A stretch of 64,000 nt of DNA from an uncultured Flavobacteriaceae bacterium (GTDB taxonomy: Bacteria; Bacteroidota; Bacteroidia; NS11-12g; UBA955). The stretch covers positions 1,326-65,325 of the forward strand of contig CAYYXG010000014.1 of the NCBI GenBank assembly GCA_964475595.1, in the 5' to 3' direction. The translations under genes were made by a program, and so were the position numbers. The notes below the pieces were generated by a model. It was given only the letters and a program-made list of their open reading frames with translations, was not told where the DNA came from and did not search any database. Below are positions 8,410 through 34,719 of the stretch, piece after piece (position 1 is the stretch's first letter; every line of letters begins with the position of its first letter).

Positions 8410-8411
8410 TT

Positions 8412-9755: not shown

Positions 9756-9774
9756 TTTTCTCTTTTGTTAAAAA

Positions 9775-10734: not shown

Positions 10735-10780
10735 TTTACAAATATTATGGTTTTTTTCTAAACTTTATCGGTTTTATCTG

Positions 10781-13630: not shown

Positions 13631-13640
13631 CTTATCTACA

Positions 13641-19400: not shown

Positions 19401-19630
19401 ATTTCATCTGTTTTTTGAAGTGCACCCAACTTTAAAAGATCCTGTTTTCTGACCCAAACGTCCTCTTCTGCGTAATGATGCACCAATTCAAGTTTTAGTT
19501 GATCGTCTTCAGCGTCAAACCATTCATGAAAATACATTTTGAAATTATCGGAGAGCTCAATCTCCAGATCTGTGGAATATAACTGAATCCCCGAGTTGGC
19601 TATCAGACTTATATCTTTTTTCATTACCAC
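16499..19630 (-). CDS. large actin/Hsp70-fold (ASKHA) ATPase, SrfB-like
   Basis: 1043 aa. Phosphate-1 motif DLVVDMGNSRTCAVLFD, phosphate-2 motif SVDIGAGTTDLMIADY, adenosine motif IVLLSGRPTGLKPI. The size and architecture recall the virulence-factor SrfB family. Confidence 0.6.
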   Translation of the reverse strand: MVMKKDISLIANSGIQLYSTDLEIELSDNFKMYFHEWFDAEDDQLKLELVHHYAEEDVWVRKQDLLKLGALQKTDEMSGDKLIKAGTVKEPWSAVNKSEEFLSGKFREVIPNVNSDSDETDCFPISLNRLKWDKFENHWLPMPFFALGKNNKSKFGPVNWCRFKLVPGEQKDQVRKYTLLIAFDTRTRFESQGFEADDLVETPTFSNYDRSKQFSLCNSEFSLIDFFSKSMNCEWVDEYILELFHGEKSLDGMRIKKPKMSYLAQYVFLLRYIQQLKTVPEVTLFSNRNVAYGDVDLVVDMGNSRTCAVLFDNHDFTKVENLELQNFTNPVVNGELNKSREPFDMRLAFHEASFGGHFIKNSPQFVYPSAVRLGIEANELIHNTASLNIGLDKITTFSSPKRFLWDSKPQKKEWEFISFDKERSKNIWIKGISEQVNADGTLNTDGSGGFVSNYSRRSLMTFAFLEIFSQARMQINGYAFRQRWGDEAKPRRLDRILITCPTAMSKVEQIALRKCAEDAAIMLDRFYNETHLDDLDEKAARKNVQIIPSSASVSKNSEDKSWIYDEATCTQFLYLYAEINKRYNNNCKEFFEFYGGKSGSGETSKHLTIGSVDIGAGTTDLMIADYTYGDTGQCLLKPEPLFWESFYLAGDDMLKDLVRKLIIEGEFGAMELWLKKLKKAEASKLINDFFGENTARQSKTARQIRSEFNLQVSVPVVVKYLELLAEDKQNSRVLTFNDIFSHNMPTERVQDYFQNHFGFSLKDIAWQYDRKIIAPIVESVFDSLVGKISAILAHYKCDIVLLSGRPTGLKPISDLFLKYFAVSPNRIVALNKYRVGRWYPFQDGNGYFKDSKSVVAVGAMIGHYSSTAGSLNGFALDLSELGKKMVPTSDYFALKETEEAFITPALNSNKVSVPQLPWRIWTRQLDTKLYPTRPFYFLDFNREKIEEKIKNKKGLFDEQKQEIQMAFQAEFEKLKKQEPFKFTIIRESYRDDKEIIKIDSVESREGEDITPAYFTLQLQSMSEDSEYWMDTGVFQNLKIVTLK

Positions 19631-20031
19631 TCTTTATTATTATTACTTTTATTATTTATCTTATATATTTTCACCATACAAGCTTATGTTTCTATGATGA
19701 CTGGCATTAAGAAGCGAACTTCAAATATATAGAATTAACTGAAAAAAACATTATAAGTGAATATTTTGATATACAATCAATTAAGGATATTAACGCATAT
19801 TTTGAAGATAACCGTTTATTCATTTCGCCTGTAACAGACATTTTTAGCACATTGTTTCTAATTCGTGGCATTTTATTTAAACTATCCAACCGCACATAAC
19901 TCTCATTAAAAAATATGCCCCGCCTTGGCAATGTTTTAGTTGCTTTATGTTTTGATACATACAATAATAACAAACCCAACATCAACAAACCAAACATGTT
20001 GAAAAAATAATCCTCATACAAACAGCTCAAG

Positions 20032-21009
20032 CTACAATACCCGGCCACCAGAGTATAGCTTATCCGCTACCCTCCCCGCCAAATCACCTATTTCCTTGTG
20101 CCTGGCAAGCTGTTGCAGCCACTTTTCTGGAATGTTATCTAAGCCATAATATAGTCCTGCCAGGCCACCTGTGACAGCCCCGGTAGTGTCAGTATCGCGG
20201 CCTAGATTCACTGCTTTTAAAACAGCATCCGGGTAATTGTCTGTCGTTAGAAAACACCATATACTCGCTTCCAGCGTATGTAAAACATAACCGCTACTTT
20301 GTATTGCATCTTTTTCAAGCCTGTGTATGTCACTTTTTAACAAACGAACAAATACAGCAATTTCGGTTGGGTGTACCTTACGGCTGTGCAAATGCGCAAG
20401 AACTTTAGCTTGCAAATTTTTGTATATTTCAAACTTCTCTTTGCCTTCCAAAACCTGCAGCGCAAATTCCATGTAATAAAAACACGCTATAATGGAACGA
20501 ATATGTCCATGTGTGATTGATGAAACCTCTTTGGTAAGTTCAAACCGCTCATAAATGGGCTTATTGTAGATATGGAATAACAATGGCAAAATGCGCATCA
20601 GTGAACCATTCCCATTGTCTTCTTCATTGAAACCACCGGCAAGTTCCGGCTTCGCTCCGCGGGCAAGACGCAAAATGGCATCACTTGTTGCTATGCCAAT
20701 ATCAAACACATCTCCATACGGAGTCCAGTAATTCTCATAGCACCATTTCACAAAGTTTTGCCCGATGGTGTTCAGATCAAATTCCTGCGTTAAGGCTTCG
20801 GCCAGGCAAAAGGTCATGGAGCTGTCGTCCGACCATGTACCAGGCGGCAGGTTGTATGTACCATAACCGATCATATCCGTTACAGGATTTTTTCTTATGG
20901 TTTCGCGGCTCTTAAATTCAACGGGCACGCCCAAAGCGTCGCCCACGGCTAAGCCAAACAGTGCGGATTGAATGTGGTGAAGAGTGGGATGCATATGAAT
21001 TTGAATCAA
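20032..21009 (-). CDS. ADP-ribosylglycohydrolase family protein
   Basis: 325 aa. FGLAVGDALGVPVEF...NGSLMRILPL...RDTDTTGAVTGGLAGLYYG are typical ARH/DraG motifs. GC-normal within an AT-rich island. Confidence 0.8.
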   Translation of the reverse strand: MIQIHMHPTLHHIQSALFGLAVGDALGVPVEFKSRETIRKNPVTDMIGYGTYNLPPGTWSDDSSMTFCLAEALTQEFDLNTIGQNFVKWCYENYWTPYGDVFDIGIATSDAILRLARGAKPELAGGFNEEDNGNGSLMRILPLLFHIYNKPIYERFELTKEVSSITHGHIRSIIACFYYMEFALQVLEGKEKFEIYKNLQAKVLAHLHSRKVHPTEIAVFVRLLKSDIHRLEKDAIQSSGYVLHTLEASIWCFLTTDNYPDAVLKAVNLGRDTDTTGAVTGGLAGLYYGLDNIPEKWLQQLARHKEIGDLAGRVADKLYSGGRVL

Positions 21010-21490: not shown

Positions 21491-22570
21491 TTACCTCAAA
21501 AATCTAATCTGTAAATTAAGATTAAAAAATAACTTTTCATCCTCTTTGTAAATAGTGCCGAACTCATGTTTTGAACTGCTGGCTGTATCAAATTTAGTAT
21601 TATTCAATAAATAGTTCTCAAATTCGTTTCTATTGTATATATGATAACACAAAATATCACCGTCTTCTTTGACAACTAAATAGCCACCTGTTGCATCAAG
21701 TTCCCCTTCCCATGCTTTTGACGGCATCATGCCTAAGGCTATGTCTGTTAAAAATCGTTTAATCTTATATTTATAAAATGGATGATTATTTTTAAGGTCA
21801 AAATCAAGAGGATTTAATAAGGTTATCTCATCAACTAAATCCTTAGTCTTTGAATGACCCGTGGTGAAGAAAATTAAAATTAATTCTGACAGAATTTCTG
21901 GTAGGGCAGTATCAATCAATCTTAGATTGTTCCCAAAAACAGCACTCTCTGTTTTTCTATAAATAAATTTCCCCGAATAGCTACTGATTTTTTCAATTCT
22001 ATCCTTTATTTTACTTCTTGTATCAATTTCATTAATATTTTGAATTTCTTCATCAGATAAAATGGTATTTTTAATTTCATAAATAAAATTGGTAGTCTTG
22101 CCTGCGTTTAATAGCGTTGATGCACTTCCAAGTTGAGATTTTATACTAAATCCGAGTTCTGGTGTTATTCCTGTCCTTTGGTCATGAATTACTATTCTTA
22201 TGTCGCTTTTTATGGTTGATTTAGCCTTAAGAGAAATACAGTTAAATGATTTAATGAAAGCTTCAATTTCAGGAATTGAGAATGTCGGCGATTTAGTTGA
22301 TTTTAACTTTGAAAGCAGTAAAACCGCATTCTCTCTAAATCTGTTAATAGGAATTTTAAACTCCTCATTTACACCTTTAACAATAATTATATTACCATCG
22401 TAACCATATTCAAAAGTTCCGTTAGATTCATCACGCAGAATTTTAATAATTGGAAATATTAGGCTTTCAATTTTATTTAAATCACTGTCTCCTGTATACA
22501 GCTTTTTATCGGATATGATTTTAAGAAGTGTATATATTTCACTCCATTCACCTATGTTTCCGGTCAGCAT
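21491..22570 (-). CDS. putative type II restriction endonuclease (partner of adjacent Dcm/Vsr)
   Basis: 359 aa with no recognisable motif. Assigned only by its position immediately downstream of the methyltransferase and vsr genes on the same strand. Confidence 0.4.
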   Translation of the reverse strand: MLTGNIGEWSEIYTLLKIISDKKLYTGDSDLNKIESLIFPIIKILRDESNGTFEYGYDGNIIIVKGVNEEFKIPINRFRENAVLLLSKLKSTKSPTFSIPEIEAFIKSFNCISLKAKSTIKSDIRIVIHDQRTGITPELGFSIKSQLGSASTLLNAGKTTNFIYEIKNTILSDEEIQNINEIDTRSKIKDRIEKISSYSGKFIYRKTESAVFGNNLRLIDTALPEILSELILIFFTTGHSKTKDLVDEITLLNPLDFDLKNNHPFYKYKIKRFLTDIALGMMPSKAWEGELDATGGYLVVKEDGDILCYHIYNRNEFENYLLNNTKFDTASSSKHEFGTIYKEDEKLFFNLNLQIRFLR

Positions 22571-22576
22571 TAGAAT

Positions 22577-23848
22577 TTACTTTATTTTATCCAAAATTTG
22601 CTTAGCTGTTGCTTTAATTGCAGGTATGGCCACGGAGTTGCCGAACTGTTTATAAGCAGATGCATCTGCGACAGCATCTATGATAAATTTATCAGGAAAC
22701 CCTTGCAATCTTGCCCATTCTCTGGGAGTCATTTTTCTAATTCCCTCACGATTCACCTCGCCCTTTATGTGGGTAGTAGGGGTGTAGTCCGTAATTCTAT
22801 TGTCAATCACAAGGTTTCTTTCGCGGCCCATACCACCGCAAACCACAGCATTAGCAATGTCGTCATCAGATATGATTTGATATCCAAAACCATTGCCTTT
22901 ATGCTCATGTCTGGCTTTATGATTTTTTAATGTTTGCAAATACTGTGTCGATAGAAAGAACTTGGTAGCCGGAACATTCTTCTCCTTGATGTCGGCAAAA
23001 GTTACTTTTTTATTAGAAGGTTGAGGGTACTCAAATTCGTTTATGCCAAGGTCTTTCCTGAAGCCAACAATAAAAATCCTTTCTCTATTTTGCGGGACTT
23101 CAAAATCTTTTGCATTTATAATTTGAGGTTCGGGTACATAATAACCAAGGTCGTCTCGTAACACATGTAAAATGGTTGATAGTGTCTTGCCTTTATCATG
23201 ATTTCTGAGGCCCTTTACATTTTCCAAGAAAAATGCTTTAGGTTGTTTTCGCTGAATGATTTCTGCCACATCAAAAAATAATGTTCCTCTAGTATCTTCA
23301 AATCCGCCTCTTTTGCCAGCAATAGAGAAAGCTTGACAAGGGAAACCGGCACAGAGAACATCAAATCCATTAGGAATATAACTTTTTGTAAGTTCTTTTG
23401 TGATATCACCGAAAGGCACTTCCCCGAAGTTGGCACGATAAGTTTTCTGCGCTTCTTTATCCCATTCGCTTGTAAAAACACATTTACCTCCCAAACTTTG
23501 CATGGCTAATCTAAAACCACCGATACCTGCAAATAAATCAATGAATTTGAACGTATAATTTTCGGGAGTCGGAAAAGGAACAGCATTTACCTCAAAAAGC
23601 AATTGTTGCAGTGCCTTATCCGAGACTAAGTTCAGACCATCATTTTCATTTTTATATTCTACGTATTCGCTAATTGCCTTAATGGCATCTTCCTCAAAAT
23701 GGCTCGAGACACCGTTGTCGCGGTTATGTAGATAATGTGTCACAATAGCCTTTTTAACATTGGAAACACCCTGTTCTTGTGTTCTAAAAATTTTGTCTTC
23801 AAACTGGTCGATGCTTATTTTCTTTTTTAAACTCATAAATGGCTTCAA
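22577..23848 (-). CDS. DNA (cytosine-5)-methyltransferase
   Basis: 423 aa. Motif I FIDLFAGIGGFRLA, motif IV GFPCQAFSIAGKRGG, motif VI ENVKGL, motif VIII QNRERIFIVGF. Confidence 0.9.
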   Translation of the reverse strand: MKPFMSLKKKISIDQFEDKIFRTQEQGVSNVKKAIVTHYLHNRDNGVSSHFEEDAIKAISEYVEYKNENDGLNLVSDKALQQLLFEVNAVPFPTPENYTFKFIDLFAGIGGFRLAMQSLGGKCVFTSEWDKEAQKTYRANFGEVPFGDITKELTKSYIPNGFDVLCAGFPCQAFSIAGKRGGFEDTRGTLFFDVAEIIQRKQPKAFFLENVKGLRNHDKGKTLSTILHVLRDDLGYYVPEPQIINAKDFEVPQNRERIFIVGFRKDLGINEFEYPQPSNKKVTFADIKEKNVPATKFFLSTQYLQTLKNHKARHEHKGNGFGYQIISDDDIANAVVCGGMGRERNLVIDNRITDYTPTTHIKGEVNREGIRKMTPREWARLQGFPDKFIIDAVADASAYKQFGNSVAIPAIKATAKQILDKIK

Positions 23849-24239
23849 TAATTTTGTCCGTGCAATTTCGCAAGTTTTTGGTAATGTCCTTGCCCCAAAA
23901 ACGCAAAACTTTCCACCCTGATTTCAACAATTCTTCATTAACCTCAATATCTCGCTGAATGTTTCGCTCTATTTTGTTATGCCAAAACTGTTGGTTGGAC
24001 TTATGGTCGTACTTGCGCTTTTCCCAGTCCTTGCCATGCCAAAACTCGCTGTCAACAAAAATGGCCAGCTTATATCTTTTCATGGTAAGATCGGGCTTGC
24101 CAAAAACTGTCTTGTCATTTTTTCTGTAGCGATAGCCCATAGACCAAAGCTCCCGCGCAAGTGCCTTTTCTATCTTTGATCCTGCCGATTTAACGGCTCG
24201 CATGTTTTTACTCCTGGCACTATGTGTTGATATATTCAT
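23799..24239 (-). CDS. vsr: very short patch repair endonuclease
   Basis: 146 aa. N-terminal RSKNMRAVKS and GKPDL...AIFVDSEFWHGK...WKVLRFW match the Vsr family. Overlaps the methyltransferase gene by ~50 nt. Confidence 0.8.
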   Translation of the reverse strand: MNISTHSARSKNMRAVKSAGSKIEKALARELWSMGYRYRKNDKTVFGKPDLTMKRYKLAIFVDSEFWHGKDWEKRKYDHKSNQQFWHNKIERNIQRDIEVNEELLKSGWKVLRFWGKDITKNLRNCTDKIIEAIYEFKKENKHRPV

Positions 24240-24316
24240 AGCATGTAAACTACAAATTTCAAATATAGCTTATATGGATTTTATTTAAGCGATATATTAG
24301 TATATTTGCAATATTA

Positions 24317-24565
24317 ATGACTATAAACAGTAAAACATCAAGCTCCTCAAAACGAAATAGGTTTGAAAAAGTTGCTTCGAATCGAGTAAGCAAGATAATA
24401 GGCCTACTTGATCTTTTGGGAAACTGCGCCAACAAACACAACTACGATTATTCAGAAAAAGATGTAGAATTGATGTTCAGAGAAATTAACCGAGCTTTAA
24501 AAGAATCCAGGGCTCAGTTCAGCAGACAGAGAACCAAATCCAATAAAAGTATATTTAAATTCTAA
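24317..24565 (+). CDS. small basic hypothetical protein upstream of GHKL ATPase
   Basis: 82-aa ORF, K/R/S-rich, 8 nt upstream of the next gene. Confidence 0.3.
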   Translation: MTINSKTSSSSKRNRFEKVASNRVSKIIGLLDLLGNCANKHNYDYSEKDVELMFREINRALKESRAQFSRQRTKSNKSIFKF

Positions 24566-24573
24566 AATAAAAT

Positions 24574-26526
24574 ATGGAAAACAATTGTAAATGGCATTTC
24601 GATAAAAGCGGCATTTCGATTACGGGGCCAAACGACGCAATTCACGAAGTATTCAGAGCCAATCCTTACTATTCTATCGTTCGAGAAGCTGTTCAAAATA
24701 GCCTGGATGCCGTTGATAATGAAGAAGAGCCGGTTAAAGTGGTGTTTGAATTTGATTCTATAGAGAAGCAGTCATATCCAAATTTATTTGCAATAAAAGA
24801 ACATATCGTGGCCTGTTGGCAATTTCATCGTGGAGATGTACAAGCAGAAAAACACTTCAAGCCCATGTCTAATTACATAGACAGACATCATAAAATTAGA
24901 TTCTTGCGGATTGGAGACTATAATACCAAAGGAATGGAGTATTCGACAGTCGACAACAATAGTCCGTTTGTCTCTTTCGTTCGAGGTGAGGGAAAGAGCG
25001 CCAAACAAGCAGGATCGGGCGGCTCCTTTGGCTTTGGTAAAGGAGCGTATTATGTTTTATCACCAATAAAAACCCTGCTGATATCAACCAAAACAAAGGG
25101 AGGGAATGTGTTTTTTGAGGGCAGAACTAGGTTGGCGACACATCAAATCAATGATGAATTGTTCTCTAGAGATGGATTTTATAATGTAAATTATGTAACA
25201 CCTGTTTCAACAGAAGCCGACATGCCAAGGCTATTCATACGAAATGAATCAGGAACAGATGTTTATATCATTGGTTTGATAGAAGCACAAAACAGAAAAC
25301 AAGAAATAATCAAATCAGTTTTAAACAATTTTTGGCTGGCAATACACGATAAGAAATTAGAAGTAGAAATAATTGAAAATGGCGATAGCACGCATATTGC
25401 GAAGGACACCCTCGAAAATATGATTGAATCATATTTTCCGGATATCTTGGAAAAAGGCAAAGCCACTGATATTACAAGTTGGAATCCAAAATCTTACTAC
25501 AAAGCAGTAAGATATTCCGGGCAAAATGAAGATTACCCATATTTTGAGGAGACCCTTCCTAATTTGGGTAATGTAAAATTGTATGTATATCTTGATAAAA
25601 GCCTGCCAAACAGGATTGCTTACTTGAGAAAACCAAGGATGGTTGTTCAAAAGAAAACTATCAATAGTTTAAATGGATATGTGGCGGTTCTGCTTTGTGA
25701 TAATAATGTGGGAAATGAACTGTTGCGACAAATGGAAAATTCGGCTCACAACGAGTGGAAAACTGAGAACTGCAGAGATGATACAAACCAATCTAATATT
25801 AATCAGGCATACAAAGAACTCAATCAATTCATTAATAACAAATTAGAAATGCTTTCCAAAGTTGATGCACAAAGCAGTGTAGCATTTTTAGGCTTGGAGG
25901 AGTTTTTGGCAATTCCGGATGATTTGATTGAAAAAGACGAAGATTCAAACCTGACGGGAGAGAGTGACAATGAATTTTCAGGAGCAGCCACAAACAGGCC
26001 GAACGAAGGTGAAACAGGCATGCAAACCACCAATACTTTCGGAAAAGTTCAAATTACACCAACAATCATTAAACCTAATAATATAAAAGAGGACAAAAAC
26101 ATAGAGCAAGCGGAAGATGGAACGGAAATTATGATGACGGGTGGAGATAACGAATCCGATGGGGGCGATATGCCTGGCCTTGAAGAAGGTGATTCCAAAA
26201 CTATCGGCATGTCGGGTGATGGCAATGAAAATAATCGCGTACCTGTTATTGTGCAATTAAAAATAGCTGCCCAATTTGAGGGTGGCGTATGGTATCATAA
26301 TCTTATAATTAACGCAGTTAAAAGTATTGCAAAAGCTGAAATAGAATTACTGGCAGGTGGAGATAATGAGGATGAAAAAGGAGTAAGTATTGCAACCGCT
26401 AATTCTGGTATAATACAAGGAAACATTTTAAAGAATGTTCAATTGAACACTGGTAAAAATATTATAAGGGTCAGTTTTAACAACAACATAAAACAGTCAT
26501 TAAAAATAAAAGCCTATGAACTTTAA
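24574..26526 (+). CDS. GHKL-superfamily ATPase (HATPase_c_3 / paraMORC-like)
   Basis: 650 aa. N-box VREAVQNSLDA, G1 box IGDYNTKGM, G2 box GSGGSFGFGKGA. Confidence 0.7.
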   Translation: MENNCKWHFDKSGISITGPNDAIHEVFRANPYYSIVREAVQNSLDAVDNEEEPVKVVFEFDSIEKQSYPNLFAIKEHIVACWQFHRGDVQAEKHFKPMSNYIDRHHKIRFLRIGDYNTKGMEYSTVDNNSPFVSFVRGEGKSAKQAGSGGSFGFGKGAYYVLSPIKTLLISTKTKGGNVFFEGRTRLATHQINDELFSRDGFYNVNYVTPVSTEADMPRLFIRNESGTDVYIIGLIEAQNRKQEIIKSVLNNFWLAIHDKKLEVEIIENGDSTHIAKDTLENMIESYFPDILEKGKATDITSWNPKSYYKAVRYSGQNEDYPYFEETLPNLGNVKLYVYLDKSLPNRIAYLRKPRMVVQKKTINSLNGYVAVLLCDNNVGNELLRQMENSAHNEWKTENCRDDTNQSNINQAYKELNQFINNKLEMLSKVDAQSSVAFLGLEEFLAIPDDLIEKDEDSNLTGESDNEFSGAATNRPNEGETGMQTTNTFGKVQITPTIIKPNNIKEDKNIEQAEDGTEIMMTGGDNESDGGDMPGLEEGDSKTIGMSGDGNENNRVPVIVQLKIAAQFEGGVWYHNLIINAVKSIAKAEIELLAGGDNEDEKGVSIATANSGIIQGNILKNVQLNTGKNIIRVSFNNNIKQSLKIKAYEL

Positions 26527-27370
26527 TAACATTTCTTTGCCACATCCGGTTTTAAGATCTAACTATGATGATATTGCAAGTAGGATTGCTTTAGATCCAC
26601 CTCCAAACATTACCGAAAGCAACAATACCTATTATATTACTGTTACGTGTGAGCATGATAATTCTGATTTACATGAATTGATTAAATCCGAAAAGGCTGA
26701 ATATTATTGTGAAGTCACATGTTCCCATACTCTATACAGGAGCTTTGTAACATCTCAAGATAAAACACTATTCATCGAAATTCCCAAAAAACACCTAAAA
26801 GGCAAAGTTGAATTCTCATGCGCATTATTAGCAAAATCATCGTTTTCAGAATATCAAAACAGCAATGCTCATCATGATTATACAGGTTTCCGTTTTGAAA
26901 TCGAATCGGGAGATATATTGGCGTTTTTCGGTAAATTTACTTTCAATGCTGATATCAGATATGAAAAACTAAAAGCAGTATCTTCCTTTATGGAAGTAGT
27001 GGCAAATGAGGATAATAATGTTATTTATACAAATGTTAATTTGAACAAAAATAAAATCGAAGTACAATTGCCTATAGAAGATTACAATCTATTTGCAAAC
27101 GACAGCATATCTAAAGAACCAAAATTTGCATCCGTCTTTCACTCATCAATTGTATTGAATGCACTGTTGATTGCTTTGTATAAAATTGAACATTTCGAGG
27201 ATAAATTGTGGGCTAAAACCATTGAATACCGACTTAATGAAGAAAATATCTCTTTAGATGAAGACAACATTCCTGAAATTGCCCAAAAGCTTTTGGGAAA
27301 TCCTTATAAAAGACTTATAGAAGATCTTCACAATATTACAGTTAATCAACATTCAAGCATCAACGAATAG
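26516..27370 (+). CDS. hypothetical protein (operon partner of GHKL ATPase)
   Basis: 284 aa. Start overlaps the ATPase stop by 11 nt. Confidence 0.5.
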   Translation: MNFNNISLPHPVLRSNYDDIASRIALDPPPNITESNNTYYITVTCEHDNSDLHELIKSEKAEYYCEVTCSHTLYRSFVTSQDKTLFIEIPKKHLKGKVEFSCALLAKSSFSEYQNSNAHHDYTGFRFEIESGDILAFFGKFTFNADIRYEKLKAVSSFMEVVANEDNNVIYTNVNLNKNKIEVQLPIEDYNLFANDSISKEPKFASVFHSSIVLNALLIALYKIEHFEDKLWAKTIEYRLNEENISLDEDNIPEIAQKLLGNPYKRLIEDLHNITVNQHSSINE

Positions 27371-27374
27371 CACT

Positions 27375-28097
27375 ATGAATAAACAACTTGTTTTTAGAGA
27401 AAAATACCTTCAAAAACTTAGGGAAGAGATCAATGTTGAAAGATACCAAAGCAGTGAATTTGTATACGACAGGAAACAAACCCTTATGATGGCCAACATA
27501 ATCCAACCCCTGGATTTGGTTGGAAAACTTAACCACAAAGACGATTTTATTTCCGCTATAGCTATTTATGAAGCATATAAAAATCTAGAACCTATTCAGG
27601 CTTCCGATGAACGTTTCTGGGGCTATTTGGCACATGTTGATTTATATCAATACATGATTAAACGATGGCCAAAAGTGATTAACATAGAAGAAAGCAATCC
27701 GATAAAATATATTAGGGACCACTGGTTTATGGGCACTACATCACAAGGGAACCTCATGCGTCATTCACTGGCAGGACTATGGTGGTCGGTGCATTTAACA
27801 GTTGACGAACAAAGGACAAACAAATATGAATTGACTGAAGTTCTATTCAGTAATCAAACACTTAGAACAAGAACACTCGGTAATTACAGGTTATTTAGAC
27901 ATAAAGAAGCTGTAATTGGTTTGCTTGAATTTTGTAAAGAAAACAAATCTATTTTGAAGAACTTTGATAAGCAGCACCAACAATTAACAGAGCATTTGAA
28001 TTTAATTGGAGGGGTGAAATTTCTAGCTTACCGAGATAGAGATTTCTTTAAATTAGAGCTACTTAAGATACTACCCTTATTGAATAAGAGTAGTTAA
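27375..28097 (+). CDS. hypothetical protein (operon partner of GHKL ATPase)
   Basis: 240 aa. Begins 4 nt after the previous stop. Confidence 0.5.
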   Translation: MNKQLVFREKYLQKLREEINVERYQSSEFVYDRKQTLMMANIIQPLDLVGKLNHKDDFISAIAIYEAYKNLEPIQASDERFWGYLAHVDLYQYMIKRWPKVINIEESNPIKYIRDHWFMGTTSQGNLMRHSLAGLWWSVHLTVDEQRTNKYELTEVLFSNQTLRTRTLGNYRLFRHKEAVIGLLEFCKENKSILKNFDKQHQQLTEHLNLIGGVKFLAYRDRDFFKLELLKILPLLNKSS

Positions 28098-28162
28098 TTT
28101 TATAAATATTGGATTGTATATAATTATATATGTATTCGGAAATGTTACATTGTTCTATATTT

Positions 28163-29659
28163 TTATTTTTTGGATAAAGCAAGGATTCCTTTTTTAATCT
28201 TTCCTGTTATTATTCTATTTAGAACACCTTCCTTTAAATCTAATATTTTTTGTAAAACCGCTATTACTATATCTTCAACAGAATTCCTTTCATCATAGTA
28301 AACATCTGATTCACTAATTTGAGTTAGACCAGTTTGCCTTATTCTAATTACCGGATGCCCATTAGCTTTTAAAAATTCTGTTTTCTCTATATCTTTTTGT
28401 AGCGAATTTTTATGCGTATGAAATGGATCATATTCCAATCCCAAGTGTATCTCCGGAATCCAAATATCTATTGAAGGTATGCTGTTCCTAAACTTAAGCC
28501 CGCTTATTTTGTAGGGAGAATCAGGTATTTGGCTAAAATACATTTGCAAAAGTTTCCTAATTTCTGCTTCAGCTTTTGATGTACCTTGTTTATTCCTTCG
28601 CGTTGAGCATTGAGGACATCCCGTTTTATTTACCCCAGTCCTATTTGCCGGTGTAGCTATCCAGCAGAAACCACAGGTAGGATTCGAACAAATCCAGTTA
28701 ATCTGCTTACTTGATTTTAACGAAACTTTTTCTATTGAATAACCTTTTTTAATATTTGCTTCAGCGTCCCATTCTTCACTTAATAATTTATCAGATGCAA
28801 CACTCTTTTCAGGACTTGTTATAATATTTTTGCAATACGGACAACCTGTTGGCTTGTTCTTTTTAATCCTGTTGTATAAAATAGAATGATATTTGTGTCC
28901 AATTGGGCATATCCAATGTAATTCTGTGGAGCTTAAATTTTTGGCAGTATATTTAAAAGGATTTAGATTGTTTTTTTCAAAGTCCCATTCATTAATTATT
29001 AAATCTAAATGTGTTGAAGCAAGACAATTTTTTAAAGTAGCCGTTTTATCCCTACATTGGGGACAACCTTCCCTATTACTAGTTCTTTTTCTGACCTCAT
29101 TTTCCCATTTAAACTGACACACATGACATACCCATCCGACCTTTGCTTTACTTCCCGGCAATATATCTTGAGCAGTATTTTTATTTACAAACTCATCATA
29201 ATCTTTAGCAATCTCAGGATATTCAGTTTCAAGATTGTATTCCTTTGATGCTAATTTATGGGCACAGTAAGGACATCCCGTAGGTTTAATGCGTGCTCTT
29301 GAATTTATTTGTGCTTCCCATTTATGTTTTAACTTTGTACATTCCCAAGTAACTTTATCCGTGCTTCCCGCAACAACCTCCGAAGGTGATTTTGCATTAT
29401 CACGAGACCACTCTGAAACTAAATGCGGATGAGTGGAAGCCAAGCAATTTCTTGTATTTACTCTATGATTTTGACAGTAATGGCAGTCACGCCCCCTAAC
29501 TAAACGATTATACATACTTGCCTCCCATTCATCTCCAAACTTCACGCATTTCCACTTAAATTGCATTCTCGAATCATCCTTATGCTTGAGTGCATCCTCA
29601 AATTCAAGGACATTATCATTGGAATACTCTAATTTTAAAATATCTAATCTGTTTTGCAT
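28163..29659 (-). CDS. multi-Zn-ribbon protein with C-terminal Vsr/DUF559-like endonuclease-fold domain
   Basis: 498 aa. At least five repeats of W.C...H.W......R.....GCP.C (e.g. WECTKLKHKWEAQINSRARIKPTGCPYCAHK). C-terminus GLEYDPFHTH...GHPVIRIR. Confidence 0.55.
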   Translation of the reverse strand: MQNRLDILKLEYSNDNVLEFEDALKHKDDSRMQFKWKCVKFGDEWEASMYNRLVRGRDCHYCQNHRVNTRNCLASTHPHLVSEWSRDNAKSPSEVVAGSTDKVTWECTKLKHKWEAQINSRARIKPTGCPYCAHKLASKEYNLETEYPEIAKDYDEFVNKNTAQDILPGSKAKVGWVCHVCQFKWENEVRKRTSNREGCPQCRDKTATLKNCLASTHLDLIINEWDFEKNNLNPFKYTAKNLSSTELHWICPIGHKYHSILYNRIKKNKPTGCPYCKNIITSPEKSVASDKLLSEEWDAEANIKKGYSIEKVSLKSSKQINWICSNPTCGFCWIATPANRTGVNKTGCPQCSTRRNKQGTSKAEAEIRKLLQMYFSQIPDSPYKISGLKFRNSIPSIDIWIPEIHLGLEYDPFHTHKNSLQKDIEKTEFLKANGHPVIRIRQTGLTQISESDVYYDERNSVEDIVIAVLQKILDLKEGVLNRIITGKIKKGILALSKK

Positions 29660-29689
29660 TTAATATACTATTACTCCACAACAAAATAT

Positions 29690-30313
29690 TTATCTAATCC
29701 ATAAATTTTTTGTTTCAAATTCCAATTTACAGCTCAATATTCGCTGATTTGTCAACCTTTGTATGAAAGATTGAATATTATTATATGTCATTTTATTATC
29801 TAATTTTGACCAAGGCACCTTATAGCCATCAATTATAAATCTTGCCTGTCCCCCAATTATAATTATATTGTTTAAATCCTCCGCGTTATATTTCCGTTTT
29901 AGTTCAAGAAGTACAATATTATCAATAGGAGCATGAAAATAAGAAAAACTATTAACCAAAAACTTATGTAGTTCATTAAATTTACTATCTTTTTCTGAGT
30001 AATAAAAACAGAAATAATACTTAAATAATATATTAATGACTTTCTGACTTTGGCCAAATGTTAAATTGCCAATTGTTTGAACTTTTTCAGCAGCAGCGTA
30101 AAACCAAACATCAAATTCACCCTGATTTTTAAATTTGAATCTAGGATCATATAACTCAGTATATAGAAATTCTTTAATCTCGGTTCTTTGGGCATTTGTG
30201 GTACCTCCTCTGTTGGTTCTCTGCATGGTGGCAAAAGTTGCTGTAAACCATTTATCTCTATTGAAGGCTTGAAGCCCTATAGTTTCGCAAAAATCAACAC
30301 AAAACTTTTTCAT
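29690..30313 (-). CDS. hypothetical protein
   Basis: 207-aa ORF in the AT-rich island. No motif recognised. Confidence 0.4.
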   Translation of the reverse strand: MKKFCVDFCETIGLQAFNRDKWFTATFATMQRTNRGGTTNAQRTEIKEFLYTELYDPRFKFKNQGEFDVWFYAAAEKVQTIGNLTFGQSQKVINILFKYYFCFYYSEKDSKFNELHKFLVNSFSYFHAPIDNIVLLELKRKYNAEDLNNIIIIGGQARFIIDGYKVPWSKLDNKMTYNNIQSFIQRLTNQRILSCKLEFETKNLWIR

Positions 30314-30377: not shown

Positions 30378-30647
30378 CTACCCGCATTCCCGGAACCATT
30401 TCACAAAGTTTTGTGCAACGGTATTCAGGTCAAAATCCTGCGTTAGGGCTTCGGCCAGGCAAAAGGTCATGGAGCTGTCGTCCGACCATGTACCAGGCGG
30501 CAGGTTGTATGTACCATAACCGATCATATCAGTTACAGGATTTTTTCTTATGGTTTCGCGGCTCTTAAATTCAATGGGCACGCCCAAAGCGTCACCCACG
30601 GCTAAGCCAAACAGTACGGATTGAATGTGGTGACGAGTGGGATGCAT
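30378..30647 (-). pseudogene. duplicated 5' fragment (codons 1-~88) of the ADP-ribosylglycohydrolase gene
   Basis: ~95% nt identity to 20736-21001. Identity begins ~8 bp upstream of the ATG and ends abruptly at tggt|gctatgag vs tggt|tccgggaa. Stop after 89 codons. Confidence 0.75.
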
Positions 30648-30899
30648 ATGAAGCCTTAATAGATTTTATTGCCACTGTTGTTTTTTGATGATATTTATAT
30701 TCTAGAAAAATTTTGTAACAAACTTGAGCCTACACAATGAAATTCTTTTTTTATTTTCAAAAATAAACAATCTGTATATCTCATTTAGGCACCCATCCAT
30801 ATACGCCCGAAATAATCCTGACATTATTCATCAAAGTATACATTGTTTTCATGATGGTTGCCTAATAAATGGCTCAAGACAATGATAATACAATCATCA

Positions 30900-31520
30900 A
30901 CAAACCAAATGTGTGGAAAAATATAACACACACATATTGCGCGATTATCTGACGGTATATAACAACCTTCCTTGCCATTATACAATCATTAAACGTTCAA
31001 TCGTGATTATCGATGTTCTTATACCACAAACAATCGCGATGATTAATCATGATATACAAATTTGCTTTGCGATTAATCAGATCAACCATTTCTGCGCCTC
31101 CAGATAATCAAGTTCAACATACATTTTATATGGTCTCGTTCCGCGATTAATATAATTGCATTATTCAGCAATCACGACATATAAACAGCCAATGAGAATG
31201 TGTGTGTCAATCATCACATTTAACCGACTATCGATAATAATCAATACGGTCTCATTTTACGTTCAATACAATTGCACTCTCAATATATCATAATATATTA
31301 ACGACAATCCCGACTCAATATACATCATACATCTGACATGCCGTCACAATACAATGTTGATTAATCATAAATGGTGTTAAAATCCTGTGAATTCACGGAA
31401 ATTTATCACAAGCAAAATAGCTGGTTTATCATTGTCATTTTTCACATTTTGTTTGTTGATAGCATGTTTGTCATAGCTCGTGTTATATCATTGATCATTT
31501 ATCATTTTATTGATTTATAC
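30900..31520. repeat. non-coding AT-rich region with reiterated palindromic TGATTAATCA / CGCGATTA motifs
   Basis: No ORF longer than 64 aa across 30650-32020. At least 8 copies of GATTA(A)TCA-type motifs, including the 12-bp palindrome ATGATTAATCAT. Further ATCATT reiterations at 31420-31520. Confidence 0.45.
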
Positions 31521-31956
31521 CAGGCCCAGAATATTCCAAAAACAAAATGATTGTTGTTTATCATCGTTCATACTTTGATATACATAAACTGTATTATCCG
31601 GGAACAGCGAAAAGACCGATTCGATTATTTGTTTGTTAGCCGATATATCAAGTTGGATGGTGTATGTTGTTTATTCATCCAATCCTTCCAAAATTACAAT
31701 GGCTGAATTTGATGATTATCTGAGTATCCAACTCAAACCACTATCCCAAAAAATTGATGGTGCGTAAAAGTGGTAAATGGAATAATGACACTTTGAATGT
31801 TAACCTTCACGAAATTTTACATTCATGTATATAATTTATACGAAACAGAATCTACTGAAAATACCGGCGATGAATGAAAACATATGCTGGTCAAAAAAAG
31901 CCATTGAAAAAGCGATCACATCTTTCTTTGAGAGTATTTCACCAAACCCCTTAAAG

Positions 31957-31992
31957 TAAAAAAGCCAACTACCCTGGGCAGTTGGCTTTTTC
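31957..31992. terminator. bidirectional rho-independent terminator
   Basis: aaaaa-agccaact-accctgggc-agttggct-ttttt. Confidence 0.5.
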
Positions 31993-32023
31993 GAGCTGTT
32001 TAGCAAGTTTCTAAAAGGCCTTG

Positions 32024-32212
32024 TCAGTCGGAATTGCAGGCGCCATCCTGGATGAAGCTATATAAGTCCTCCTCCTTGTACCAAACAGTGGCGGTTCCCT
32101 TGGGTTTGTAGTACTTGAGACCCCTTTTTTTCATTACGTGAAACCAAGTGCGCTTTTTGCCAAGCAATTCCATGGCCTGTTTTTCGGTTAAAAATGTAAA
32201 TTTTTTGTCCAT
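32024..32212 (-). CDS. helix-turn-helix DNA-binding protein, excisionase (Xis/AlpA)-like
   Basis: 62 aa. LTEKQAMELLGKKRTWFHVMKKRGLKYYK is typical of small HTH Xis proteins in Bacteroidota mobile elements. Lies next to the integrase module. Confidence 0.5.
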   Translation of the reverse strand: MDKKFTFLTEKQAMELLGKKRTWFHVMKKRGLKYYKPKGTATVWYKEEDLYSFIQDGACNSD

Positions 32213-32273
32213 AATATTTTATGTTTATACCTACAAAACAAAAACCGAAAAGTTCCCGGGAATTTTAAAATGT

Positions 32274-34399: not shown

Positions 34400-34651
34400 A
34401 TTTTTTTACGTGGGTTTAAATGCTTTCGGCAAAGGTTGGATCAGAAAGTTCCCGAAATTTTTAAAAGTGGGAGGGTGGGGATGAATCCTGAATATTATTG
34501 GGGTCTTTGGTTGTCTTGGCAACAGGGGTTGGCTTTGGCGTTGCATTGCAGCCAAAAGTGAAGCATTTTGGGGCTCAGGTGAAACACTCAGGGGCCCAGG
34601 TGAAACAGAAGTGAAACAAAATGCGGTTTGAAACGAAAAGTTCCGAGCAGC

Positions 34652-34684
34652 TAAAAAAAAGAAAACCCTTGCCATGACAAGGGT
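34652..34684 (-). terminator. rho-independent terminator of ssrA
   Basis: On the minus strand: acccttgtcatggcaagggt hairpin followed by ttttctttttttt. Confidence 0.5.
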
Positions 34685-34719
34685 TCAAAGGAATACGAAA
34701 AATTCCGAAAACTAATCAG

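What the first reader, a model, noticed from the sequence alone, without database searches (positions are those of the whole stretch)
21491..30313. Defence-type cargo: type II R-M with Vsr, GHKL/paraMORC-like ATPase three-gene operon, and a multi-Zn-ribbon endonuclease-fold protein
The Dcm (all four diagnostic 5mC-methyltransferase motifs), Vsr and a 359-aa partner lie on one strand and form a classic 5mC restriction-modification unit. Vsr is needed because 5mC deamination gives T:G mismatches. Directly adjacent is a 650-aa GHKL ATPase with N-box, G1 and G2 motifs of the HATPase_c_3/MORC type, translationally coupled to two unknown genes (284 and 240 aa). Bacterial MORC-like ATPases are known to associate with R-M loci, but this particular three-gene arrangement is not one I recognise as a named system. 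Next is a 498-aa protein with at least five treble-clef-like Zn-ribbon repeats (W.C..H.W...GCP.C) fused to a Vsr/DUF559-like endonuclease-fold C-terminus. That architecture suggests a nucleic-acid-targeting effector.
Basis: partly seen in the sequence, partly recalled or inferred. Interest (0 to 1): 0.65.

Follow-up and report, generated by a model that had tools for sequence, protein, structure and literature searches.

The report
Methylase-linked GHKL ATPase defence-like cassette
A 9.4-kb cassette in a Bacteroidota-type genomic island carries an ordinary HpaII-type restriction-modification system with Vsr, a stand-alone zinc-ribbon nuclease, and a four-gene GHKL-ATPase operon (the untested PADLOC candidate PDC-M33 plus a small gene nobody had listed) that in related genomes almost always sits beside a cytosine-5 DNA methylase, which suggests an uncharacterised methylation-coupled system.

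Summary

- **Restriction-modification part.** R.HpaII-family endonuclease, C5 methylase and Vsr form a textbook system. This is already known biology.
- **Zn-ribbon protein.** The 498-aa protein has five DUF4379 zinc ribbons and a C-terminal Vsr-like nuclease domain (hhalign probability 96%). It accompanies the ATPase operon only in this window.
- **The "three-gene GHKL operon".** This is PADLOC candidate PDC-M33 (A/B/C), which is catalogued but unpublished and untested.

New results here:

- A conserved ~80-aa gene immediately precedes A, so the operon has four genes.
- Of 23 dereplicated related loci with enough flank, 20 have a C5 methylase within 4 kb. The methylase usually abuts the operon. 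In 12 of 71 A clusters, and in viral-collection locus L094, it lies inside the operon.
- The methylases are interchangeable (22-79% identity), whereas A, B and C co-evolve tightly.
- B and C have confident AF2 models with no significant structural match in the two libraries available (PDB and BFVD, Foldseek). No nuclease signature was found in either.

GHKL status of A rests on invariant Bergerat-type motifs and only weak profile support.

Best reading (inference): the operon is an ATP-driven, methylation-coupled restriction-like module that shares the methylase with R.HpaII. A role in repairing 5mC damage remains a serious rival.

The parts
20742..20999 (.). Left copy of a 258-nt direct repeat: the 5' part of the intact ADP-ribosylglycohydrolase gene (20032-21009, minus strand)
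   Evidence: the repeat finder D1: 95% identity to 30395-30652, spacing 9653 nt. Protein-level identity is 91%.
21491..22570 (-). R.HpaII-family type II restriction endonuclease (359 aa)
   Evidence: Pfam RE_HpaII 4.1e-138, covering 6-357 of 359 aa. PADLOC REase_II 1e-118.
22577..23836 (-). Cytosine-5 DNA methylase, M.HpaII-like (419 aa as called; the ORF extends to 23848)
   Evidence: PF00145 9e-102 and TIGR00675 8e-97. Motifs I, IV, VI, VIII, IX and X read. Its closest relatives (58-79% identity) are always next to an R.HpaII gene.
23799..24239 (-). Vsr very-short-patch-repair T:G mismatch nicking endonuclease (146 aa)
   Evidence: TIGR00632 1e-42 (145 bits, cutoff 97.85) and Pfam Vsr 2e-29.
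24240..24316 (.). 77-bp AT-rich divergent intergenic region between vsr and the small gene. Presumed to hold both promoters (inference only).
   Evidence: Sequence read. Not tested.
24317..24565 (+). Conserved small protein 's82' (82 aa), first gene of the GHKL operon. Absent from PADLOC's PDC-M33 model.
   Evidence: phmmer finds it in 48 related loci (37 of 71 clusters), 0-24 nt upstream of A (87 nt in L087/L088), or upstream of MTase-A. It has a conserved motif RxRFxkvAxxRxxkxxxxLxLLgNCsNxxxYEY. No PADLOC, Pfam, NCBIfam or PHROG family.
24574..26526 (+). Protein A (650 aa): divergent GHKL-type ATPase, PADLOC PDC-M33A
   Evidence: PDC-M33A 3e-98 over the full length. Invariant E38/N42/D45, D115/N117/G120, G150/G153/G155/K156 and G227, plus R352, E388xxxH392xxW395. 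The family has 2936 50%-identity representatives at E<=1e-3. No Pfam or PDB sequence hit.
26516..27370 (+). Protein B (284 aa): PDC-M33B. Predicted N-terminal beta-sandwich plus C-terminal helical domain.
   Evidence: PDC-M33B 3e-55. AF2 pLDDT 84.8, pTM 0.53. Foldseek against PDB gives only weak FN3-like hits, TM ~0.25. No conserved acidic catalytic set.
27375..28097 (+). Protein C (240 aa): DUF6339, PDC-M33C. Mostly alpha-helical model without a significant structural match in the libraries available.
   Evidence: Pfam DUF6339 5e-53 and PDC-M33C 1e-33. AF2 pLDDT 89.4, pTM 0.87. No fold match in PDB (best E 4) or BFVD. Invariant W82, R97, W136, W137.
28163..29659 (-). 498-aa protein: five DUF4379 treble-clef Zn ribbons plus a C-terminal Vsr/DUF559-like nuclease domain. 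Independent cargo gene.
   Evidence: Pfam DUF4379 5e-57, 5 stretches. C-terminal family against a Vsr alignment: hhalign probability 96.3%, E 1.9e-9. Homologues carry PF18741 or PF04480. Not seen next to A-B-C in any of 92 other related loci, L001-L091 and L094.
29690..30313 (-). 207-aa protein of unknown function. No family hit; not linked to the operon elsewhere.
   Evidence: No hit in Pfam, PADLOC, NCBIfam or PHROGs. phmmer finds it only in the window.
30378..30652 (-). Truncated duplicate (89 aa) of the 5' end of the ADP-ribosylglycohydrolase gene; right copy of the 258-nt direct repeat
   Evidence: Pfam ADP_ribosyl_GH, profile positions 2-83 only. 91% aa identity to the N-terminus of the intact copy. 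Repeat D1.

Best explanation
The region is one 9.4-kb cargo cassette bracketed by 258-nt direct repeats. It holds three functional units.

1. **A complete HpaII-type type II restriction-modification system.** The C5 methylase marks host sites (presumably CCGG) and the R.HpaII-family enzyme cuts unmarked DNA. Vsr repairs the T:G mismatches that 5-methylcytosine deamination creates.
2. **A four-gene operon, s82-A-B-C.** A is a divergent GHKL ATPase. s82, B and C have no known family function. This is PADLOC's untested candidate PDC-M33 plus the small gene.
3. **Two unrelated cargo genes.** One is a stand-alone nuclease with five Zn ribbons and a Vsr-like catalytic domain. The other is a 207-aa unknown.

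My proposal for unit 2 is inference, not demonstration. I think it is a second, ATP-driven restriction-like arm that uses the neighbouring C5 methylase as its 'self' marker. A would dimerise on DNA with ATP, as GHKL clamps do. B, C or s82 would read the methylation state or contact the conserved methylase core. DNA lacking the mark would then be blocked or handed to a nuclease. The partner methylases are freely exchanged between specificities. So the module must read something generic (5mC itself, or the methylase catalytic core) rather than a particular sequence.

Shown: gene identities, operon structure, and the methylase linkage and its interchangeability. Inferred: defence function, dependence on methylation, and the roles of s82, B and C.

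The confidence given (0.5) is for the mechanistic proposal for unit 2. The annotation of units 1 and 3 and the methylase linkage itself I hold at about 0.9.
For: - **Gene identities:**
- **Cassette borders:**
- **Four-gene operon:** s82 is conserved in 37 of 71 clusters and lies 0-24 nt before A in nearly all of them (87 nt in L087/L088).
- **Methylase linkage:** C5 MTase is the commonest neighbour family after A, B and C (47 of 71 clusters at 90% A identity, many of the rest on short contigs). It is present within 4 kb in 20 of 23 clusters with at least 3 kb of flank on both sides.
- **Minimal unit:** locus L010 carries only MTase + s82-A-B-C between housekeeping genes, with no REase and no Vsr.
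- **MTase inside the operon:** 12 of the 71 A clusters (gaps of 15 nt or less). L094 is a single co-directional operon s82-MTase-A-B-C-Vsr.
- **Partner independence:** the MTase partners range over 22-79% identity. They come with different REases or none: HpaII-like, MutH/Sau3AI-like, HNH_2, LlaJI-like McrBC.
- **Co-evolution:** A, B and C identities correlate at rho ~0.8 with one another but only ~0.15 with the MTase.
- **Mobility and diversification typical of defence genes:** 91-96% identical systems sit in different flanks (L010 vs L011). Tandem second copies occur (L053). The window copy lies on a low-GC island next to a tmRNA gene and an integrase.
- **N6A variant:** five clusters replace the C5 MTase with an Eco57I-like N6A methylase plus a PLD-SNF2 helicase. 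That fits restriction better than 5mC repair.
- **Prior concept:** GHKL (MORC/paraMORC) genes with Dcm, Vsr and HNH neighbours were predicted to be R-M components (PMC2292703).
Against: - No experiment exists. PDC-x systems are unpublished candidates (PMC11811056), and no paper in the library mentions PDC-M33 or DUF6339.
- No nuclease or other effector domain was detected in s82, A, B or C.
- GHKL status of A is not statistically established with the tools available. No structure model of A was made.
- If the module needed a physical contact with the methylase, free exchange of methylases only ~23% identical would be awkward.
- The near-exclusive tie to C5 (not N6A) methylases and the frequent in-operon Vsr are equally what a 5mC-damage repair helper would show.
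- Three of 23 well-flanked loci lack a nearby C5 methylase.
- CCGG is not avoided in the window: 252 matches against 130 expected. So there is no sequence footprint of restriction pressure.
Confidence: 0.5

Rival explanations
1. 5mC-damage repair helper. s82-A-B-C is a MutL-like accessory machine that works with Vsr (or replaces it). It would find and repair T:G or U:G mismatches, or other lesions, created by the resident C5 methylase. This would lower the mutational cost of carrying the methylase. It would not be a defence system.
For: - The association is almost exclusively with C5 methylases, the only class that creates T:G by deamination (47 clusters against 5 with N6A).
- Vsr is present in 28 of 71 clusters. 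It is sometimes the last gene of the operon directly after C (L018, L050, L090, L094).
- A is a GHKL ATPase like MutL. From my own knowledge of the E. coli literature, MutL stimulates Vsr.
- No nuclease is found in A, B or C, so Vsr could be the catalytic partner.
- Independence from methylase specificity is expected for a lesion-directed system.
Against: - More than half of the loci have no Vsr nearby.
- L010-type cassettes would then be an orphan methylase plus its repair kit, with no obvious reason to be mobile.
- A subset pairs the operon with an N6A methylase and a PLD-SNF2 helicase, where deamination is irrelevant.
- Tandem paralogous sets (L053) and an island or conjugative-element location fit conflict systems better.
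- A has no MutL family hit and no MutL C-terminal endonuclease motif.
Confidence: 0.2
2. Autonomous defence system. s82-A-B-C senses and blocks phage by a mechanism that needs neither the methylase nor methylation. The methylase adjacency reflects co-mobilisation of defence genes in the same cassettes.
For: - PADLOC lists A/B/C alone as the candidate.
- A, B and C evolve independently of the methylase (rho ~0.15).
- Three well-flanked loci have no C5 methylase.
- The methylases often have their own REase.
Against: - 20 of 23 is far more than island clustering normally gives.
- The methylase is inside the operon with gaps of 15 nt or less, or overlaps, in 12 clusters and in L094.
- In L010 the cassette holds nothing else.
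Confidence: 0.12
3. Guard or abortive-infection module. The operon monitors the methylase or the R-M system, for example against phage anti-restriction proteins or SAM depletion, and triggers growth arrest when it is inhibited. This would be analogous to PrrC guarding EcoprrI.
For: - The methylase is the one constant neighbour, whatever REase is present.
- No DNA-cleaving domain is evident.
- Interchangeability of methylases fits a sensor of the conserved catalytic core or of SAM status.
Against: - No toxin-like effector domain was detected.
- There is no precedent for a GHKL ATPase in this role.
- The idea is purely analogical.
Confidence: 0.08

Closest known systems
HpaII restriction-modification system with adjacent Vsr (type II, CCGG)
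   Same: The R.HpaII-family endonuclease, C5 methylase and Vsr lie on one strand, all intact. Four other loci show the same M.HpaII-like plus R.HpaII pairing.
   Different: Nothing of note for these three genes. Recognition sequence and methylated base are inferred from family membership, not measured.
PADLOC candidate system PDC-M33 (A, B, C)
   Same: All three proteins hit the PDC-M33A/B/C models over their full length, in the same order.
   Different: The PADLOC model has no small first gene and no methylase. Here the conserved unit is s82-A-B-C plus a C5 methylase, often with Vsr. PDC-x systems are unpublished and untested.
MORC/paraMORC GHKL ATPases in predicted R-M operons (Iyer, Abhiman and Aravind 2008, PMC2292703)
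   Same: GHKL-type ATP-binding motifs and neighbourhoods with Dcm, Vsr, HNH, SNF2 helicases and PLD nucleases. An ExxxH motif after the ATPase core is described for paraMORC2.
   Different: - A does not reach the Pfam HATPase_c_3 threshold.
- An S5 domain could not be checked.
- The obligatory partners s82, B and DUF6339 are not mentioned in the text of that paper that I read.
- Bona fide HATPase_c_3 + Hypoth_Ymh genes co-occur as separate genes in some loci (L001, L009, L013, L014).
Methylase-coupled multi-gene defence systems (DISARM class 2, Druantia type II, BREX)
   Same: A DNA methylase is genetically tied to several large proteins without an obvious classical REase. The methylase is presumed to mark self.
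   Different: None of their signature proteins is present. There is no DrmA/DrmB, DruE, PglZ or BrxC hit in PADLOC. The methylase matches DrmMII and DruM models only as a generic C5 methylase.
MutL-Vsr cooperation in very-short-patch repair (E. coli)
   Same: A GHKL ATPase and Vsr are encoded together with a Dcm-type methylase.
   Different: A is not a MutL family member (no Pfam or NCBIfam MutL hit; hhalign against the MutL N-terminus aligns only the G2 region, probability 5%). The B and C partners are unknown in VSP repair.
DUF4379 multi-zinc-ribbon proteins fused to DUF559/MTES_1575 Vsr-like nucleases
   Same: Five DUF4379 repeats plus a Vsr-like C-terminal domain. Hundreds of homologues have the same layout, some annotated 'very-short-patch-repair endonuclease'.
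   Different: The family itself is uncharacterised. The closest solved DUF4379 domains are kinetoplastid mitoribosome proteins.

Membership tests
Type II R-M, HpaII type | Endonuclease of the R.HpaII family | tested here: met
   Pfam RE_HpaII 4.1e-138, profile 2-359 of 359.
Type II R-M, HpaII type | Adjacent C5 methylase with catalytic motifs I, IV (PCQ), VI (ENV), VIII and X | tested here: met
   PF00145 9e-102. Motifs read.
Type II R-M, HpaII type | CCGG recognition and methylation of the inner cytosine | not testable with these tools
   Inferred only. MTases 58-79% identical to this one always sit beside an R.HpaII gene.
Vsr | Score above the curated cutoff of the Vsr model, with conserved catalytic Asp and His region | tested here: met
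   TIGR00632 145.2 bits against a cutoff of 97.85. FGKPDL and FVDSEFWHG seen.
PADLOC PDC-M33 | Three co-linear genes matching the PDC-M33A, B and C models | tested here: met
   3e-98, 3e-55 and 1e-33, near full length.
PADLOC PDC-M33 | Demonstrated anti-phage activity | not testable with these tools
   No paper in the library mentions PDC-M33. PDC-x are described as unpublished candidates.
GHKL ATPase superfamily (Bergerat fold) | N-box ExxxNxxD, G1 DxGxG-like, G2 GxxGxG and a GT motif, in that order | tested here: met
   E38/N42/D45, D115-N-T-x-G120-M, G150-G-S-F-G-F-G-K156 and G227-T are invariant or nearly so in 65 divergent homologues.
GHKL ATPase superfamily (Bergerat fold) | Significant profile or structural match to a known GHKL domain | tested here: inconclusive
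   - HATPase_c_3 is the top Pfam family, but for only 3 of 43 members, best E 0.0024.
- hhalign alignments are in register but not significant.
- The PDB profile search found nothing.
MORC / paraMORC (Iyer et al. 2008) | S5-fold domain with a basic finger after the GHKL domain; family-specific motifs (GhXhhpXXRhl for MORC, ExxxH for paraMORC2) | tested here: inconclusive
   Invariant R352 and E388xxxH392 exist downstream of the ATPase core. The S5 fold was not checked, and no reference paraMORC2 sequences were available.
MutL | MutL N-terminal family match and C-terminal dimerisation/endonuclease domain | tested here: not met
   No MutL model in Pfam or NCBIfam hits A. hhalign against the E. 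coli MutL N-terminus gives probability 5%.
DISARM / Druantia / BREX | Signature helicase, PglZ or BrxC-type proteins next to the methylase | tested here: not met
   PADLOC gives only generic C5-methylase hits (DrmMII, DruM) for the MTase and nothing for the other genes.
DUF4379 + Vsr-like nuclease proteins | Repeated DUF4379 treble-clef Zn ribbons | tested here: met
   Pfam DUF4379 5.1e-57, 5 stretches.
DUF4379 + Vsr-like nuclease proteins | C-terminal Vsr/DUF559-type PD-(D/E)xK domain | tested here: met
   - Single-sequence Pfam hits are sub-threshold (DUF559 0.013).
- The family alignment against a Vsr alignment gives hhalign probability 96.3%, E 1.9e-9.
- Homologues carry PF18741 or PF04480 at the matching segment.
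DNA sliding clamp (for protein B) | DnaN-like clamp domain | tested here: not met
   - 14 of 48 B homologues give weak PF00712 hits, best 1.4e-4.
- hhalign against E. coli DnaN gives probability 0.7%.
- The PDB profile search found no clamp.
- The 50 Foldseek matches listed contained no clamp.

The most novel reading that the evidence does not exclude
s82-A-B-C would be a prokaryotic methyl-mark-guided, MORC-like DNA-entrapment system without a nuclease. DUF6339 (a fold without a match in the libraries I could search, with an invariant Trp/Arg set) or B would read 5-methylcytosine independently of sequence context. The GHKL ATPase would clamp and immobilise or silence DNA that lacks the mark. 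Any frequent-cutter C5 methylase could therefore serve as the self marker. That would be a bacterial counterpart of eukaryotic methylation-linked MORC function and a new class of 5mC reader.
Probability: 0.1. Interest if true: 0.85.

Novelty: new variant of a known kind. Interest (0 to 1): 0.58.

Why it matters
The R-M unit and the Zn-ribbon nuclease are routine annotations.

The GHKL operon is more interesting. Its A family is widespread, with about 2,900 50%-identity representatives. It is catalogued only as an untested candidate.

- **Catalogued gene set is incomplete.** A conserved small first gene is missing from it. A C5 methylase, and often Vsr, belongs to the conserved unit.
- **Methylase partners are interchangeable.** This implies a read-out that does not depend on the target sequence. 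That is unusual for restriction systems and directly testable.
- **B and C are structurally unplaced.** Both have confident AF2 models with no significant match in the libraries I could search (PDB and BFVD by Foldseek).

If the module reads 5mC or controls DNA through a MORC-like clamp, it would link bacterial R-M biology to eukaryotic MORC and methylation silencing. If it is instead a repair helper, it would be a second mobile system, after Vsr, that offsets the mutational cost of cytosine methylation.

Tried and rejected
- **PDB sequence and profile searches.** A, B and C gave nothing useful.
- **Beta-clamp lead for B.** Weak PF00712 hits were not supported.
- **Does C co-vary with the methylase?** Only a weak residual correlation was found (rho 0.14, non-independent pairs). 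The L028/L030 case (A 99%, B 98%, C 69%, unrelated MTase) fits a recombination breakpoint between B and C, because C abuts the MTase.
- **Island att repeat.** No repeat of the tmRNA 3' end was found in 1-33000.
- **CCGG avoidance.** Not seen; the site is over-represented.
- **Literature.** No hits for PDC-M33 or DUF6339. Searches on GHKL or MORC with phage defence gave nothing specific. The supplement of the 2008 paraMORC paper holds no sequences.
- **Source organism.** It could not be named.

Full report
**Observation.** On the minus strand:
- 21491-22570 is a full-length R.HpaII-family endonuclease (Pfam RE_HpaII 4e-138; PADLOC REase_II).
- 22577-23848 is a C5 DNA methylase (PF00145 9e-102; TIGR00675 8e-97). 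Motifs I (FAGIGG), IV (PCQ), VI (ENV), VIII (QNRER), IX and X (GNS) are all visible in the translation.
- 23799-24239 is Vsr (TIGR00632 145 bits against a cutoff of 98; catalytic region).

On the plus strand lie A (24574-26526, 650 aa), B (26516-27370, 284 aa, 11-nt overlap with A) and C (27375-28097, 240 aa, 4-nt gap). Back on the minus strand are the 498-aa protein (28163-29659) and a 207-aa ORF (29690-30313).

**Setting.** The window has a low-GC stretch (31-40%) from about 1 kb to 34 kb. It ends at a tyrosine integrase (33158-34399) and a tmRNA gene (34719-35086, tag GENNYALAA). This is a genomic island of the kind that integrates at ssrA, in a Bacteroidota-like genome; homologues of the operon are mostly from Bacteroidales, Flavobacteriia and Sphingobacteriia.

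Inside the island, a 258-nt direct repeat (95% identical; 20742-20999 and 30395-30652) brackets exactly the region of the finding. The repeat is the 5' end of an ADP-ribosylglycohydrolase gene. The left copy belongs to an intact gene and the right copy to an 89-aa stump. The nine genes between them therefore look like one cassette. It was probably acquired by a single crossover at that gene (inference).

**The R-M unit.** It is ordinary. Four related loci (L016, L017, L029, L040) pair a methylase 58-79% identical to this one with an R.HpaII gene, while all other methylases in the data set are below 48% identical. I infer CCGG specificity from this. CCGG is not avoided in the window (252 matches against 130 expected).

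**The 498-aa protein.**
- Pfam finds five DUF4379 treble-clef ribbons.
- The C-terminal 143 residues alone give only sub-threshold DUF559/MTES_1575 hits.
- phmmer links them at 1e-10 to 1e-13 to segments of homologues that carry PF18741 or PF04480, or are named very-short-patch-repair endonuclease.
- An alignment of 75 such segments matches an alignment of Vsr proteins with hhalign probability 96.3%, E 1.9e-9. The match aligns the catalytic Asp strand, the (E/V)-x-D-G-x-x-x-H segment and the C-terminal R/K-D...G...IR strand.

This protein and the 207-aa ORF were found next to A-B-C only in the window. I treat them as independent cargo.

**The GHKL operon is a catalogued candidate with a missing gene.** A, B and C match PADLOC's PDC-M33A/B/C models over their full length (3e-98, 3e-55, 1e-33). 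C is Pfam DUF6339 (5e-53). PDC-x entries are unpublished candidates (PMC11811056), and no paper in the library mentions PDC-M33 or DUF6339.

The 82-aa ORF at 24317-24565, 8 nt upstream of A, is a real gene. phmmer finds it in 48 related loci, 0-24 nt upstream of A in nearly all of them (87 nt in L087/L088), or upstream of MTase-A. It has a well-conserved motif (RxRFxkvAxxRxxkxxxxLxLLgNCsNxxxYEY...DV..mFxEI). Independent gene callers also call it. It has no hit in any family library. The operon therefore has four genes.

**Is A a GHKL ATPase?** Across 65 homologues down to about 28% identity, the invariant residues are:
- E38/N42/D45 within RExxQNxxDA (N-box);
- D115/N117/G120 within DYNTxGM (G1-like);
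- G150/G153/G155/K156 within GGSFGFGK (G2);
- G227 of a GT motif.

These occur in the order expected for the Bergerat fold. Further invariant residues are H190, R223, R352, C375 and E388xxxH392xxW395.

Statistical support is thin:
- No Pfam hit for the window protein.
- HATPase_c_3 is the only family hit by more than one of 43 members (3 members, best E 0.0024).
- The PDB profile search found nothing.
- hhalign against Hsp82, MutL and five bona fide HATPase_c_3 proteins from related loci aligns G1, G2 and GT in register, but with non-significant scores.

I accept GHKL as likely (about 0.8) but not proven. It is not MutL. The ExxxH motif recalls what Iyer et al. describe for paraMORC2, but I could not test that membership.

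**B and C.**
- AF2 models built on 48-sequence alignments are confident. B has pLDDT 84.8 and pTM 0.53, with a beta-sandwich at about residues 24-185 followed by a helical domain. C has pLDDT 89.4 and pTM 0.87 and is mostly helical.
- Foldseek against the PDB gives only weak FN3-like matches for B (TM ~0.25) and nothing for C (best E 4). BFVD gives nothing for C.
- Profile searches of PDB sequences are empty.
- With divergent members included, B keeps only P11, C69, T72, R75, Y113, G132, I181, L217 and W232. C keeps A76, W82, L85, R97, W136 and W137. Neither keeps an acidic set of the kind nucleases need.
- A weak recurrent PF00712 (beta-clamp) signal in B (14 of 48 members, best 1.4e-4) was not supported by hhalign, the PDB profile search or the listed Foldseek matches.

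**The key result is linkage to a C5 methylase.** I collected 91 related loci. Four came from genomes, seven from exact look-ups of B homologues and 80 from a metagenome scan with an alignment of A. I annotated them with HMMs of A, B and C and phmmer searches of the window's other proteins.

After dereplication at 90% identity of A (71 clusters), an unbiased clustering of all neighbours within 5 kb gave these counts (identities):

| Neighbour family | Clusters (of 71) |
|---|---|
| A | 71 |
| B | 66 |
| C | 64 |
| C5 methylase | 47 |
| s82 | 37 |
| Vsr | 28 |
| HNH_2-like | 6 |
| HATPase_c_3 + Hypoth_Ymh | 6 |
| R.HpaII | 5 |
| MutH/Sau3AI-like REase | 5 |
| McrB-like AAA_5 with a DUF2357/PDDEXK_7 partner (LlaJI-like) | 5 |
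| PLD-SNF2 helicase | 5 |

- Among the 23 clusters with complete A-B-C and at least 3 kb on both sides, 20 have a C5 methylase within 4 kb.
- The methylase nearly always abuts the operon. It is divergent upstream in 19 clusters (as in the window), downstream on the same strand in 14, upstream on the same strand in 7, and convergent downstream in 7. In 12 clusters it is co-directional with a gap of 15 nt or less, or an overlap.
- The one locus from the viral collection, L094, is a single operon s82-MTase-A-B-C-Vsr.
- L010 carries only MTase + s82-A-B-C between a pseudouridine synthase gene and arginine-biosynthesis genes.
- The exceptions are informative. L004 and L075 have a PLD-SNF2 helicase next door, and relatives of L004 have an Eco57I-like N6A methylase nearby. 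L077 sits in a conjugative-element-like context.

**The methylase is interchangeable.** The closest relatives of the window's A (45-50% identity) sit beside methylases only ~23% identical to the window's. The M.HpaII-like methylases sit beside A proteins of 33-48% identity. Over 37 loci, pairwise identities of A, B and C correlate with one another at rho ~0.8 but with the methylase at only 0.07-0.16. So s82-A-B-C is one co-evolving machine that has repeatedly changed methylase partner and, with it, REase partner or none.

**Interpretation.** The constant partner is a C5 methylase, not a particular REase and not always Vsr. The most economical reading is that the operon functionally depends on cytosine-5 methylation or on the methylase. 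I favour a restriction-like, ATP-driven module that uses 5mC as the self mark.
- A cassette of methylase plus operon alone (L010) is then a complete selfish or defensive unit.
- The family is patchy and mobile (L010 and L011 share 91-96% identity but have different flanks).
- It occurs as tandem paralogous sets (L053).
- A minority pairs it with an N6A methylase and a PLD-SNF2 helicase, which is a restriction-type context.
- It fits the earlier comparative-genomic prediction that MORC and paraMORC ATPases next to Dcm, Vsr and HNH genes are R-M components (PMC2292703).

Because partners are exchanged freely, the read-out must be generic: 5mC itself or the conserved methylase core. This makes the invariant Trp/Arg set of DUF6339 a candidate reader, which is speculation.

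The main rival is a repair helper for 5mC damage. That would also explain the C5 bias, the in-operon Vsr, the MutL-like ATPase and the lack of a nuclease. I cannot exclude it and give it 0.2. An autonomous defence system (0.12) and a guard of the methylase (0.08) are less likely.

**Novelty and verdict.** The R-M unit is already known. The Zn-ribbon nuclease is a member of a known but uncharacterised family. The GHKL operon is a new variant of a known kind (GHKL-associated R-M-like systems, listed as PDC-M33). What this analysis adds:
- the fourth gene;
- the near-obligatory but interchangeable C5 methylase;
- frequent inclusion of Vsr;
- two partner proteins without a significant structural match in the libraries available;
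- the absence of a recognisable nuclease signature in s82, A, B or C.

Interest is moderate to fairly high, because the system is widespread (2936 representatives at E<=1e-3), untested, and directly testable.

Noticed in passing
window 20742-20999 and 30395-30652: A 258-nt direct repeat (95% identical) brackets exactly the finding region. It is the 5' end of an ADP-ribosylglycohydrolase gene: intact at 20032-21009(-), truncated to 89 aa at 30378-30647(-). This suggests the nine-gene cassette entered by a single crossover at that gene.
   Followed up: partly
window 33158-35086: A tmRNA gene (34719-35086, minus strand, tag GENNYALAA) lies next to a tyrosine integrase (33158-34399). The roughly 33 kb to its left has low GC (31-40% against ~45% elsewhere), so this looks like an ssrA-integrated island. 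No att-like repeat of the tmRNA 3' end was found in 1-33000.
   Followed up: partly
window 6319-21009 (minus strand): A long co-directional gene run: three proteins without any family hit (696, 447 and 319 aa), a 949-aa protein with an S8 subtilase domain, a SrfC-like 'Virul_Fac' protein (952 aa), a SrfB family protein (1043 aa), a 113-aa ORF and the ADP-ribosylglycohydrolase. Apart from a generic subtilase hit on the 949-aa protein, the members scanned (all but the 113-aa ORF) matched no PADLOC model. It may be another conflict system.
   Followed up: partly
window 30650-32270: About 1.6 kb with no ORF of 100 aa or more lies between the truncated glycohydrolase and a 295-aa unknown gene next to the integrase. 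A 62-aa ORF (32024-32212, minus strand) looks like a small excisionase or HTH-type protein by eye. It was not scanned.
   Followed up: no
L053 8123-17937; L067 and L071: L053 has two tandem paralogous A-B-C sets, followed by an unusually long (637-aa) C5 methylase. L067 and L071 have two C (DUF6339) genes in tandem, and L071 also has two methylases. This may hint that C copy number tracks methylase number.
   Followed up: partly
L028 vs L030: A is 99% and B 98% identical, but C is only 69% identical and the downstream methylases are unrelated. This indicates a recombination breakpoint between B and C that swaps C together with the methylase.
   Followed up: partly
L005, L006, L008 (vs L007): In these loci an HNH_2 gene plus a 73-aa ORF replaces Vsr, s82 and the first 117 codons of A, including the N-box. 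B, C and the methylase remain 99-100% identical to L007. The operon there is probably a remnant.
   Followed up: yes
L003, L004, L049, L058, L062, L068, L075: A minority of loci lack a C5 methylase. Several instead carry a PLD-SNF2 helicase family (median ~1070 aa; 1119 aa in L004) beside the operon. Some also carry an Eco57I/MmeI-like N6A methylase fusion (1164 aa).
   Followed up: partly
L001, L009, L013, L014, L024: Bona fide HATPase_c_3 proteins fused to Hypoth_Ymh sit between the methylase and Vsr in the same loci as s82-A-B-C. In L009 there is also a HEF_HK plus Response_reg_2 pair. These loci therefore carry two different GHKL-type genes.
   Followed up: partly
window, whole: CCGG, the presumed target of the resident R-M system, is about twice as frequent as dinucleotide-preserving shuffles predict (252 against 130 matches counted on both strands). 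There is no avoidance.
   Followed up: yes
protein B family (alignment A1): 14 of 48 B homologues give weak hits to the N-terminal domain of the DNA polymerase III beta clamp (PF00712, best E 1.4e-4). hhalign, the PDB profile search and the listed Foldseek matches do not confirm this.
   Followed up: yes
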